This document shows positions 19,635 to 22,059 of a stretch of 64,000 nt of DNA, in pieces; position 1 is the stretch's first letter; every line of letters starts with the position of its first letter. A program made the translations under genes and the position numbers. Origin of the DNA: the human T2T-CHM13v2.0 reference genome, Homo sapiens; the NCBI RefSeq assembly GCF_009914755.1, contig NC_060936.1. One strand, written 5' to 3'. The notes below the pieces were generated by a model. That model did no database searches. It saw nothing but the letters and a program-made list of their open reading frames with translations, and was not told the origin of the DNA.

Positions 19635-20354
19635 TCAAATATATTTCATATAAGACACTGTCAATTGTAAGAGGCACCAGTATTTTCTCTGGACCTTAAG
19701 AAAGAAAACAACAAAAAAAATGACATTCAAGGTATAGATTGTAATAGAAGACCCTAGCATAAAGTTAGGGTCAGGGTAATGAGAAGTAGACCTGTCTCTA
19801 GAAGGGAACTGTAAAGAAACCAATCAGTCCTTGTTCAGATTGTGGTTTCAACTCCTACTACCAGCATCATCTAAAAAGCTTAAGCAAAAAGAAAATTTAA
19901 AGTGCTCACAGGAGCAAGCTGTGGTTGCACCATCCACTGCACTCCAGCCTGGGTGACAGAGAGAGAACTTGTCTCAAAAAAAAAAAAAAAAAAAAAAAAA
20001 GAGTAGGTTTTGGGTATATTAAGTTTGAGATATCTGTTAGACATCCAAGAGGAGATGTAGAGCAGAAAGTCGTTGCTCAAGGGATGAGACAAGGATAGAG
20101 TTATACACTTGGGAATCACTGTATACAGATGGAACTTAAAGCCACATAACTGGATGAGATGAACCAATGAAATGAGCGCAGACAAGGCAGAAGAGAGTAT
20201 TGGGTATTTCAACATTTCAAGATGGAGGAAGGAGCAGGAGCCAGCAAATGAGACTAAGTTGAAGGAGCTAATGAGGTAGAAGGATAAAGAAACGTTTTCA
20301 GAGGGAAATAGTGTTCAATGGTGTTGAAAACTTCTGAGGCATCAGGAAAGATGG

Positions 20355-21114
20355 TTTCAGTAGGTAGTTAGTAGGTATGAGCAGGACAGGAGAGGGTTCT
20401 CCCCGCCACATACACCAGGAGTGTTGGGTGACCATTAGATGATGGTCAGGTGGTTGTTAACTATTTCTCAAAGGAATAATTGCTAAAGTAATAAGTAATG
20501 ACTGCCAGAGAAAGGCAGTTTTCTAATAGAAAACACCTGAGGCCAGGCGCAATAGATAGAAAACACCTGAGGCTAGGCGCGGTGGCTCACGCCTATAATC
20601 CCAGCACTTTGAGAAGCCAAGGTGGGCGGATCACCTGAGGTCAGGAGTTTGAGACCAGCCTGGCCAATATGGTGAAACCCCATCTCCACTAAGAAATAAA
20701 AAATTAGCTGGGCATGATGGCACACATCTTTAATCTCAGCTACTTGGGAGGCTGAGGCAGGAGAATCACTTGAATCCGGGAGGTGGAGGTTGCAGTGAGC
20801 TGAGATAGTACCACTGCACTCCAGCCTGGAAAACAAAATGAGACTCCGTCTCAAAAAAAAAAAAAAAAAAAAAAGCAAAAAGCAAAACACCTGAAACTGA
20901 TCAGCAGCTTCCCACCAAGATCTCAGGAGTGAGGAGAAGTAACACAAGATTCTGGAAGTATGCCAACATTTAAAACCCCAAGTCAAGAGGTCAAGCTGTG
21001 TACTTGGTATCTCAAGTTGCCTGCTTGGCCTTCTTCCAAATGTACGTCCCTTCCTTCATTTCTATCATTTCCTTACTGTTCTAAAGCTTTTTAATAAACT
21101 TTCACTCCTGCTGT
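20355..21114 (+). mobile_element. ERV1-class LTR (MER50-like), 3'-truncated at its poly(A) site
   Basis: GTAGGTAGTTAG...TGAGCAGGACAGGAGAGGG...GATGGTCAGG...GATCAGCAGCTTCCC...AATAAACTTTCACTCCTGCT resembles a remembered MER50-type LTR; family name tentative. Confidence 0.6.
20571..20883 (+). mobile_element. AluS nested in the LTR
   Basis: Full dimer; TSD AAAACACCTGA at 20560-20570 and 20884-20894. Confidence 0.95.
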
Positions 21115-22059
21115 AAAAAAAATAAAAAAAACTTAAAAAAAAAAATAAAGTGCTCACAGTTCGTAGTTCCCTCCAGGAAGAAGAAAACATCCATCCCCCT
21201 GGCAGAAATGAACCTTAATGCAGGTAGGCAGCAATTTTCTTATTTGTAATTTTGACAACAATTTTAAGATATCATTGATTCTGAAATGTATTATTTCTAT
21301 ATTAGTTGTTAAAAGGTGAAAAATTGTATGTTTAAAATAATTTGAGTGTATTCTCTACACACAATTGGAAGGAAATGCTCAAAAATTTAGCAATGGAGAC
21401 CAGTCTGTTGGATTACATACCTATTTTACAAAATTCACCATGAATATTTATTACACATATTTAAATGTTTACCTTAATTGAGATTCTCATAATTGTCTTC
21501 ATTCTGTTTATAAAATTTAATCTCCTGTGCTAATATATTTCGAATTACTGCCAACCTTTGGCAATAAATCTCAGACAATGAGAATTTTTATAACTTCAGC
21601 ACTTTGGAAAAGGGCTATGTTTATTTTGCCTGGCATGAGTTGTTATTGTTAGCAGGTATAGGAAAGGACTTCTGAAACACACCCAATCCTTCCATTGAGA
21701 GACAGGGTGGCAGGCGGGGAAGGGAAAATAGGGATAAGTGGTTACGAGCATTGTCTCTGGAATCAGAACCATGCTTAGATTTCAGCTTTGACACATACTG
21801 ATGGTAGTGTGGACTTAGGCAAGTTATTTAAATAGCTTGTTTCTTCATTTTTAAAACAGTAATAATTGTGTTATCAAGAGAACTCAATGAAATAATGTAA
21901 AATGACTGCCATGTAATATCACTGTTACTATTTCTTAACTGGTCTGTGAGAGCAACAACTTGATAATATGACTTATTTTTAACATCTCTTTGCTGTTCTT
22001 CATTGTGATCCCCCTTAATGATGCTCACACATAAGACTTGTGAAAATGTATTATCTCTT

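What the first reader, a model, noticed from the sequence alone, without database searches (positions are those of the whole stretch)
19898..21159. Orphan retroposed cassette: Alu + L2 + LTR composite with poly(A) tail and perfect 14-bp TSD
Seen: TAAAGTGCTCACAG at 19898-19911 and 21146-21159, with an L1-endonuclease-like TT/AAAG site. It encloses a 5'-truncated Alu end, an antisense L2 fragment and an ERV1 (MER50-like) LTR that stops 16 nt after its AATAAA (21093-21098), followed by a ~30-nt A-rich tail. Established: L2 has long been inactive, and LTRs do not integrate with A-tails or 14-bp TSDs; these are hallmarks of L1-mediated TPRT. Inference: a transcript from another locus, polyadenylated in its LTR, was retroposed here (orphan 3' transduction or non-coding retrocopy). 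A repeat annotation would list unrelated elements and miss the single event.
Basis: partly seen in the sequence, partly recalled or inferred. Interest (0 to 1): 0.7.

Follow-up and report, generated by a model that had tools for sequence, protein, structure and literature searches.

The report
L1-made retrocopy ending in MER50 LTR
This 1.25-kb stretch between LEMD3 and MSRB3 is an ordinary, dead retrocopy: an old RNA that ended at the poly(A) signal of a MER50 retroviral LTR was pasted here by the LINE-1 machinery tens of millions of years ago.

Summary
TAAAGTGCTCACAG occurs exactly twice in the window (19898-19911, 21146-21159). It brackets a cassette ending in AATAAA, 16 nt, then a 31-nt tail with 27 A.

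The anatomy needs correcting. The LTR is not only 20895-21114. It starts with its own 5' TG at 20352 and runs to 21114, and the full Alu is nested inside it.

Full-length kin continue 90-147 nt past the point where the window copy becomes A-tail, so U5 is missing.

The family is MER50 (ERV1). The same family sits at both MER50 positions published near MFSD2A and TNFAIP2. Family age is about 41-45 Myr, matching "Simiiformes-specific" in print.

No source locus survives: 20000-20345 has no second copy.

This is a known kind of event.

In passing: poly(A)-ended MER50 3' ends with long flanking repeats are recurrent (31 verified). Held reviews call HERV-W the only L1-mobilised HERV group.

The parts
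19898..19911 (+). 5' copy of the 14-bp target-site duplication TAAAGTGCTCACAG. The preceding bases AGAAAATT give an L1-endonuclease-like TT/TAAA site.
19912..20000 (+). 5'-truncated Alu 3' end (19912-19975) with its own A25 tract (19976-20000). This is the 5' end of the retrocopy.
   Evidence: window 19934-19997 aligns to the same Alus, in the same orientation, as the nested Alu.
20001..20351 (.). It abuts the first base of the LTR.
   Evidence: no second copy, only 17 short matches; no match to the sequence found upstream of U3 in proviral-RNA retrocopies.
20352..20540 (+). MER50 LTR, 5' piece (U3), beginning with the LTR's own TG terminus.
20527..20586 (+). 30-bp tandem duplication spanning the LTR/Alu junction (two units, 25 of 30 bases identical).
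20571..20883 (+). Full dimeric Alu with A22 and (AAAAAGC)n tail, nested in the LTR. Its flanking repeat AAAACACCTGA lies at 20560-20570 (also 20530-20540) and at 20884-20894.
20884..21114 (+). MER50 LTR, 3' piece (rest of U3, and R) with AATAAA at 21093-21098. It ends 16 nt later, and U5 is absent.
21115..21145 (+). Poly(A) tail of the retrocopy (31 nt, 27 A).
21146..21159 (+). 3' copy of the 14-bp target-site duplication.

Best explanation
Window 19912-21145 is a single insertion made by the LINE-1 machinery (target-primed reverse transcription) from a polyadenylated RNA of another locus.

Proposed steps:
1. The RNA ran through host sequence (an Alu 3' end and an ancient repeat fragment) into a solo or 5' MER50 LTR.
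2. It was cleaved and polyadenylated 16-21 nt after that LTR's AATAAA. The copy therefore carries U3 and R but no U5.
3. L1 endonuclease nicked the target at TT/TAAA, the A-tail primed reverse transcription, and copying stopped inside the Alu.
4. Staggered second-strand cleavage produced the 14-bp duplication.
5. A full Alu lies in U3, either inserted later or already present in the source. A 30-bp junction duplication followed.

The insert is a dead fossil with no sign of function.

Shown here: the flanking repeat, the tail, the poly(A)-site truncation relative to kin, the family name, and the host (non-proviral) nature of the upstream body.
Inferred: the RNA intermediate, the L1 enzyme, the order of the Alu insertion, and the existence of a lost source locus.
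For: - Perfect 14-bp repeat, unique in the window.
- A-tail placed 16 nt after AATAAA.
- Kin-to-kin homology runs 90-147 nt past that point and reaches a TAACA terminus. Ordinary copies have 4-bp flanking repeats (GAAT, TTAC, TCAG, AACC in L010, L013, L015, L018).
- Among 18 kin loci not chosen for their tails, 13 continue into U5 and 2 end in an A-tail at the same site.
- Genome-wide, the poly(A) form of the site gives 322 hits against 118 for the reversed control. The U5 form gives 1504 against 9.
- Of 40 poly(A)-form hits fetched, 28 are MER50 3' ends followed by an A-rich tail, each with its own 5' truncation point.
- Of 25 examined for flanking repeats, 7 have exact repeats of 9-15 bp that 0 of 200 shuffles reach. 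One of the 7 is low-complexity.
- The L2-like body joins the LTR exactly at the LTR's first base, which is a genomic integration junction rather than an RNA end.
- The body shares nothing with the sequence upstream of U3 in L014, L032, L040 and L041.
Against: - No source locus: window 20000-20345 has no second copy in the searchable genome (18 of 18 candidates scored). Closed regions are not shown by the tool.
- No outgroup genome was available, so the empty site was not seen.
- Both flanks are single copy, so there is no paralogous empty site either.
- The endonuclease site departs from TT/AAAA by one base.
- Of the 25 poly(A) copies tested for flanking repeats, 8 had no exact repeat of 7 nt or more, and 10 had only repeats that shuffles often reach.
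Confidence: 0.85

Rival explanations
1. Chimeric retrocopy. The reverse transcriptase copied an LTR-terminated RNA (body plus U3-R), then switched template to the A-tail of an Alu RNA, or the RNAs were ligated beforehand. On this reading the 5' Alu piece was never part of the source locus.
For: - The 5' piece is an Alu 3' end with its own A25, joined in the same orientation to the body.
- Alu/LINE-1 chimeras that are sense-oriented and lie within one pair of flanking repeats are described. The preprint reports 113 of them, explained by template switching or RNA ligation (bioRxiv 10.1101/2025.02.02.635956, passages read).
- One kin, L006, is a bare U3-R copy starting at LTR base 1. So RNAs or cDNAs ending at that point did occur.
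Against: - An Alu with its A-tail inside a read-through transcript gives the same picture.
- The described chimeras mostly carry full-length Alus and an L1 3' part. Here the Alu is cut to 64 nt and no L1 is present.
- The body/LTR junction is a genomic junction, so at most the Alu junction could be a switch.
Confidence: 0.2
2. Orphan L1 3' transduction. The RNA started in an L1 upstream of the source, read through into flanking DNA, was polyadenylated at the MER50 signal, and was 5'-truncated so far that no L1 sequence remains.
For: Same hallmarks as the best explanation. Nothing in the insert excludes an L1 promoter upstream of the source.
Against: No L1 sequence in the insert and no source locus to inspect. 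The claim adds an untestable element.
Confidence: 0.1
3. Processed pseudogene of proviral MER50 (HERV-FRD-type) RNA, as known for HERV-W. The body upstream of U3 would be the retroviral interior.
For: Four other poly(A)-ended copies (L014, L032, L040, L041) share about 30-94 nt upstream of U3 at 84-89% identity. They therefore look like copies of proviral RNA.
Against: Window 20000-20351 has no match to those upstream stretches or to any of the 40 fetched loci, beyond a 12-nt chance hit at E 0.92. It matches scattered ancient-repeat fragments instead.
Confidence: 0.03
4. No single event. An ordinary integrase-made solo LTR lost its U5 by deletion next to an A-rich stretch, and the 14-bp repeat is coincidence.
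For: None beyond the missing source and the unseen empty site.
Against: - The 14-mer is expected 0.04 times per window by chance.
- The truncation falls at the same site as in at least 30 other A-tailed copies.
- No 4-bp repeat of the kind seen in ordinary copies can be present, because the 3' terminus is absent.
Confidence: 0.02

Closest known systems
HERV-W processed pseudogenes (LINE-1-made copies of retroviral RNA; Pavlicek et al. 2002 as cited in PMC5537654 and PMC5016936)
   Same: 3' LTR reduced to U3-R, a poly(A) tail, a TT/AAAA-like site and a 5-15-bp flanking repeat. These are the signatures listed in both reviews.
   Different: - The family is MER50, not LTR17.
- The sequence upstream of U3 is host repeat DNA, not retroviral interior.
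- There is no 5' R-U5.
- It is a single read-through RNA copy, not a copy of a provirus.
Retrocopies of non-coding or 3'-UTR RNAs, and orphan L1 3' transductions
   Same: Variable 5' truncation, an A-tail at a genuine poly(A) site, a long flanking repeat, and no coding content.
   Different: The parent locus cannot be found in the human reference. An L1 origin cannot be tested.
Chimeric retrocopies (U6/L1, Alu/L1) made by template switching or RNA ligation (bioRxiv 10.1101/2025.02.02.635956)
   Same: Pieces of different repeats in one orientation inside one pair of flanking repeats. An Alu forms the 5' partner.
   Different: There is no L1 3' part. The Alu is truncated. The body/LTR junction is genomic rather than a switch point.
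SVA-type composite retrotransposons (Alu-like part plus an LTR-derived 3' end with the LTR's poly(A) signal)
   Same: Composite of Alu sequence and a U3-R LTR end, with an A-tail, moved by L1.
   Different: This composite exists once. Its body has no second copy, so it never became a family. It has no VNTR or hexamer region.

Membership tests
L1-mediated retrocopy (TPRT insertion) | Poly(A) tail at the 3' end of the insert | tested here: met
   31-nt tail at 21115-21145 with 27 A
L1-mediated retrocopy (TPRT insertion) | Flanking target-site duplication of about 5-20 bp | tested here: met
   14 of 14 bases identical; only 2 matches in the window; 0 of 100 shuffles reach 2
L1-mediated retrocopy (TPRT insertion) | Endonuclease target resembling TT/AAAA | tested here: met
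   AGAAAATT/TAAAGTG, one base off the motif quoted in PMC5537654
L1-mediated retrocopy (TPRT insertion) | 3' end coincides with an RNA cleavage site 10-30 nt after AATAAA | tested here: met
   The window ends 16 nt after AATAAA. Kin read on into U5 at that point.
L1-mediated retrocopy (TPRT insertion) | Identifiable parent locus | tested here: not met
   Window 20000-20345 has only a self-match plus 17 short hits. No LTR kin stands out, the best being 84-85% identical. Closed regions are not visible.
L1-mediated retrocopy (TPRT insertion) | Empty site in outgroup species | not testable with these tools
   No primate genomes were available. The flanks are single copy, so there is no paralogous empty site.
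MER50 LTR (ERV1) | Homology to copies that print annotates as MER50 | tested here: met
   The window's LTR pieces and kin L013 hit only at 12.9-13.4 kb upstream of MFSD2A and 3.6-5.0 kb upstream of TNFAIP2. PMC10250217 places MER50 at 12 kb and 4.5 kb.
MER50 LTR (ERV1) | TG...CA termini and short integrase-type flanking repeat | tested here: not met
   The window copy has the 5' TG (20352) but lacks the 3' terminus and any 4-bp repeat. Kin have TGTTA...TAACA termini and 4-bp repeats in L010, L013, L015 and L018. The window copy is therefore MER50 sequence but not an integrase-made MER50 insertion. The link between a 4-bp repeat and ERV1 is recalled; it was not found in the papers read.
MER50 LTR (ERV1) | Complete U3-R-U5 | tested here: not met
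   U5 (about 90-147 nt in kin) is absent.
HERV processed pseudogene (HERV-W type) | Retroviral interior upstream of the U3-R 3' LTR | tested here: not met
   No match between 20000-20351 and the shared sequence upstream of U3 in L014, L032, L040 and L041.
Chimeric retrocopy by template switching | Junction between two independent RNAs inside one pair of flanking repeats | tested here: inconclusive
   The Alu-A25/body junction at 20000/20001 fits both a switch and a genomic Alu. No source is available to decide.
SVA-like composite retrotransposon family | Many copies of the same composite | tested here: not met
   The body is single copy.
L2 (LINE-2) fragment, antisense | Match to an L2 model, with orientation | not testable with these tools
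   No repeat library was available. Rfam found nothing in 20001-20351 at E<=1. Only short scattered matches exist. The L2 look of the sequence is recalled.

The most novel reading that the evidence does not exclude
MER50 (the HERV-FRD-type ERV1 group) is a second human ERV lineage whose RNAs were recurrently retroposed by LINE-1. A few percent to about 12% of its 3' ends are U3-R plus A-tail copies with variable 5' truncation and 9-15-bp flanking repeats. They include copies of proviral RNA (L014, L032, L040, L041), a bare U3-R copy (L006) and host read-through copies such as the window's. This runs against the statement in held reviews that HERV-W is the sole L1-mobilised HERV group.
Probability: 0.5. 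Interest if true: 0.45.

Novelty: new member of a known kind. Interest (0 to 1): 0.3.

Why it matters
The cassette itself is an ordinary fossil. It shows that a repeat annotation listing Alu, L2, LTR and Alu can hide one retroposition event, and that an LTR's poly(A) signal terminated a host read-through RNA in the germ line of an early simian.

The wider point is worth a proper census. The MER50 family shows many L1-type poly(A) copies, while reviews describe this behaviour as unique to HERV-W. If confirmed, L1 capture of ERV-terminated RNAs would be a general by-product of LTR poly(A) signals rather than a peculiarity of HERV-W. Counts and ages of MER50 'solo LTRs' would then need correcting for copies that never passed through an integrase.

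Tried and rejected
- **Source locus.** Genome searches with 20000-20530, 20886-21114 and 20000-20345 found only LTR kin and short ancient-repeat hits. No parent was found.
- **Paralogous empty site.** The flanks 19600-19911 and 21146-21460, searched separately, are single copy at the junction.
- **L2 name.** Rfam at E<=1 gave only Alu-related hits. There is no repeat library, so the L2 label and its orientation stay untested.
- **Retroviral-interior origin of the body.** Rejected.
- **Shared 5' boundary of poly(A) copies near reference position 293 as a transcription start.** Rejected. Each copy has its own boundary.
- **TRF.** It did not report the 30-bp junction duplication. That duplication was read directly.
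- **TSD-length rule for ERV classes.** Not found in PMC5753468, so it is marked as recalled.
- **Pavlicek et al. 2002.** Not held, so whether it mentions MER50-type copies is unknown.
- **Not in print, as far as searched.** Searches found no paper describing L1-made MER50 or HERV-FRD copies.
- **Supplements.** The supplementary tables of PMC10250217, which hold the MER50 coordinates, were closed. The match to the published copies therefore rests on the distances stated in the text.
- **Papers and what was seen.** Passages were read by the find mode in PMC5753468, PMC4724089, PMC10250217, PMC5537654 (abstract and passages), PMC5016936 and 10.1101/2025.02.02.635956. Other titles were seen only in search listings.
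- **Sampling bias.** The 40 poly(A)-pattern hits were picked by eye from the list: all 11 non-self hits with at most 1 mismatch, 26 of the 42 with 2 mismatches, and 3 of the 268 with 3 mismatches. They are not a random sample. The kin were chosen by similarity to a copy that is itself a retrocopy.
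Full report
**Observation.** The 14-mer TAAAGTGCTCACAG lies at 19898-19911 and 21146-21159. These are the only two matches in the window, even with one mismatch allowed. Dinucleotide shuffles give a mean of 0.04, and none of 100 reach two. Between the two copies, one search shows the following:
- an Alu 3' end (19912-19975) with A25 (19976-20000);
- a 351-bp body (20001-20351);
- LTR-like sequence interrupted by a full Alu;
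- AATAAA at 21093-21098, then 16 nt;
- a 31-nt tail with 27 A.

The target reads AGAAAATT/TAAAGTG. That is one base off the TT/AAAA motif quoted for L1-made HERV-W copies (PMC5537654, passages).

**Anatomy corrected.**
- A genome search with 20000-20530 showed that only 20346-20530 is repetitive (463 first-look candidates, best 76-87% identity).
- The 3' piece 20886-21114 had 1320 candidates, the best at 84-85% identity.
- The hits of the two pieces are adjacent at many loci, for example C5:97.73 Mb, C5:55.43 Mb, C14:37.92 Mb and C8:121.74 Mb. They are therefore one element split by the Alu.
- Rfam places two Metazoa_SRP-like halves at 20572-20688 and 20707-20854 on the + strand, which marks a dimeric Alu.
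- The Alu has its own repeat AAAACACCTGA at 20560-20570 and 20884-20894. A 30-bp tandem duplication spans its 5' junction, with 25 of 30 bases identical.
- Kin copies begin TGTTACAG... The window begins TGGTTTCAG at 20352.
- So the LTR's own 5' end is present and abuts the body directly.

**The 3' end is an RNA end.**
- Kin-to-kin BLAST among 12 oriented copies starts within about 5 nt of the common 5' end. In most pairs it runs 90-147 nt beyond the position equal to window 21112, ending in ...TAACA.
- At that position kin read ...AATAAACTTTCACTCCTGCT|CTGAAACTTGCC... The window reads ...CCTGCT|GT followed by the A-tail. U5 is therefore missing, and the break falls where cleavage after AATAAA is expected.
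- Ordinary copies carry 4-bp flanking repeats: L010 GAAT, L013 TTAC, L015 TCAG, L018 AACC. Other copies are ambiguous.
- The window copy has a 14-bp repeat set 440 bp upstream of the LTR instead.

**Family and age.**
- PMC10250217 (passages) places MER50 copies 12 kb upstream of MFSD2A and 4.5 kb upstream of TNFAIP2, and calls MER50 Simiiformes-specific.
- In the two host stretches fetched (L061 and L062), the window's LTR pieces and kin L013 hit only at 12.9-13.4 kb and 3.6-5.0 kb upstream of those genes, at 73-82% identity. The family is therefore MER50.
- MER50 is listed under ERV1, with interior MER50I, in PMC5753468. PMC4724089 treats it in the 'MER50like' supergroup, with LTR divergence of 17-32%.
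- Each window piece was compared only with kin that had been picked by the other piece. K2P from window to kin averages 0.196 (n=12), and kin to kin averages 0.179 (36 pairs).
- Half of these values, at a recalled rate of 2.2e-9 per site per year, gives about 41-45 Myr.
- The retroposition cannot be older than the source LTR.
- A perfect 14/14 repeat would be expected with probability 0.02 at 13% per-lineage divergence and 0.24 at 5%. This suggests the insertion is somewhat younger than the family average.
- The nested Alu keeps 6 CpG. Its subfamily could not be named here.
- My estimate for the insertion is roughly 25-45 Myr ago. The lower bound is soft.

**Source.**
- Window 20000-20345 has no second copy. 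All 18 of 18 first-look candidates were scored. Besides the self-match there are 17 matches of 39-72 bp at 78-92% identity, almost all to 20001-20074.
- That pattern fits an ancient interspersed repeat.
- No LTR kin stands out as a parent.
- Matches in closed regions are not shown, so absence is not proven.
- Both flanks are single copy at the junction.

**The event is one of many.**
- The 24-nt site followed by A8 has 322 matches at up to 3 mismatches, against 118 for the reversed control. The U5-continuing form has 1504 against 9.
- I fetched 40 of the poly(A)-form hits, picked by eye and not at random.
  - 28 are MER50 3' ends followed by an A-rich tail.
  - 2 continue into U5.
  - 10 are unrelated or too short to tell.
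- Each true copy has its own sharp 5' boundary. About 30-180 nt of LTR is retained in most, and the whole U3 in L032, L040 and L041.
- 25 of these were examined for flanking repeats.
  - 7 have an exact direct repeat of 9-15 bp right after the tail that none of 200 shuffles reach. One of the 7 is low-complexity.
  - 10 have only repeats that shuffles often reach.
  - 8 have no exact repeat of 7 nt or more.
  - By eye, L046, L033, L028, L042 and L044 have imperfect repeats.
- Among the 18 kin loci not chosen for their tails, 13 continue into U5, 2 (L006, L014) end in A-tails at the site, 2 are interrupted by Alus and 1 lacks the R end.
- With the window, L006 and L014, that makes 31 verified poly(A)-ended copies.
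- L014, L032, L040 and L041 share about 30-94 nt upstream of U3 at 84-89% identity, so they are copies of proviral RNA.
- L006 is a bare U3-R copy with A15 and a repeat of about 15-17 bp that starts at LTR base 1.
- The window body matches none of these upstream stretches. Its RNA therefore came from an LTR with host DNA upstream.

**Comparison with what is known.**
- The signatures are those given for HERV-W processed pseudogenes: U3-R, poly(A), TT/AAAA and a 5-15-bp repeat (PMC5537654 and PMC5016936).
- The window copy is not a copy of a provirus and belongs to another family.
- Those reviews call HERV-W the sole L1-mobilised HERV group. My searches found no description of MER50 or HERV-FRD copies of this kind. 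Pavlicek et al. 2002 could not be read.
- Alu/LINE-1 chimeras made by template switching or RNA ligation are documented. That leaves a real alternative for the 5' Alu piece.
- The composite resembles SVA in make-up, but it exists only once.

**Verdict.** The event is of a well-known kind: a new member, not a new mechanism. The family-level observation is the more interesting by-product and needs a proper census with controls.

Noticed in passing
Genome-wide; examples L022, L025, L030, L036, L048, L051, L006 = G000:C11:110699093-110700220, L014 = G000:C12:19565687-19566909: Poly(A)-ended, variably 5'-truncated MER50 3' ends with 9-15-bp flanking repeats are recurrent. 31 are verified. The pattern excess is about 200, against about 1500 U5-bearing sites. 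Held reviews state that HERV-W is the only HERV group mobilised by L1.
   Followed up: partly
L006 (G000:C11, about 110.70 Mb): A bare U3-R copy that starts at the first base of the LTR, with A15 and a flanking repeat of about 15-17 bp (AAAATGTCTATTGAAAT, with a 12-bp internal duplication in the 3' copy). Why an L1-made copy should begin exactly at the U3 boundary is unexplained.
   Followed up: partly
L014, L032, L040, L041 (upstream of their LTR starts): Four long poly(A)-ended copies share sequence upstream of U3 (84-89% identity) and look like L1-made copies of proviral MER50 RNA. Their 5' extents were not explored, because that would mean reading into the retroviral interior.
   Followed up: partly
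window 20527-20586: A 30-bp tandem duplication spans the LTR/Alu 5' junction (25 of 30 bases identical). It must post-date the Alu insertion. Tandem Repeats Finder did not report it.
   Followed up: yes
window 19912-21145 versus the mask list: The RefSeq soft-mask list (stretches of 100 bases or more) covers only 20549-20916 of the cassette. Both MER50 halves, the L2-like body and the 5' Alu piece are not listed as masked.
   Followed up: no
G000:C7:74138512, C7:76745155, C7:77921375; and C4:28774363(-)/C4:28775465(+): Identical 24-mers of the poly(A)-type site recur three times within 3.8 Mb on chromosome 7, and twice in inverted orientation 1.1 kb apart on chromosome 4. These are probably copies carried by segmental or inverted duplications rather than separate retropositions.
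   Followed up: no
window 19601-19675: The 5' flank holds an unrelated interspersed repeat fragment. It gives 11 short matches elsewhere at 79-94% identity. The 3' flank 21146-21460 is strictly single copy.
   Followed up: no
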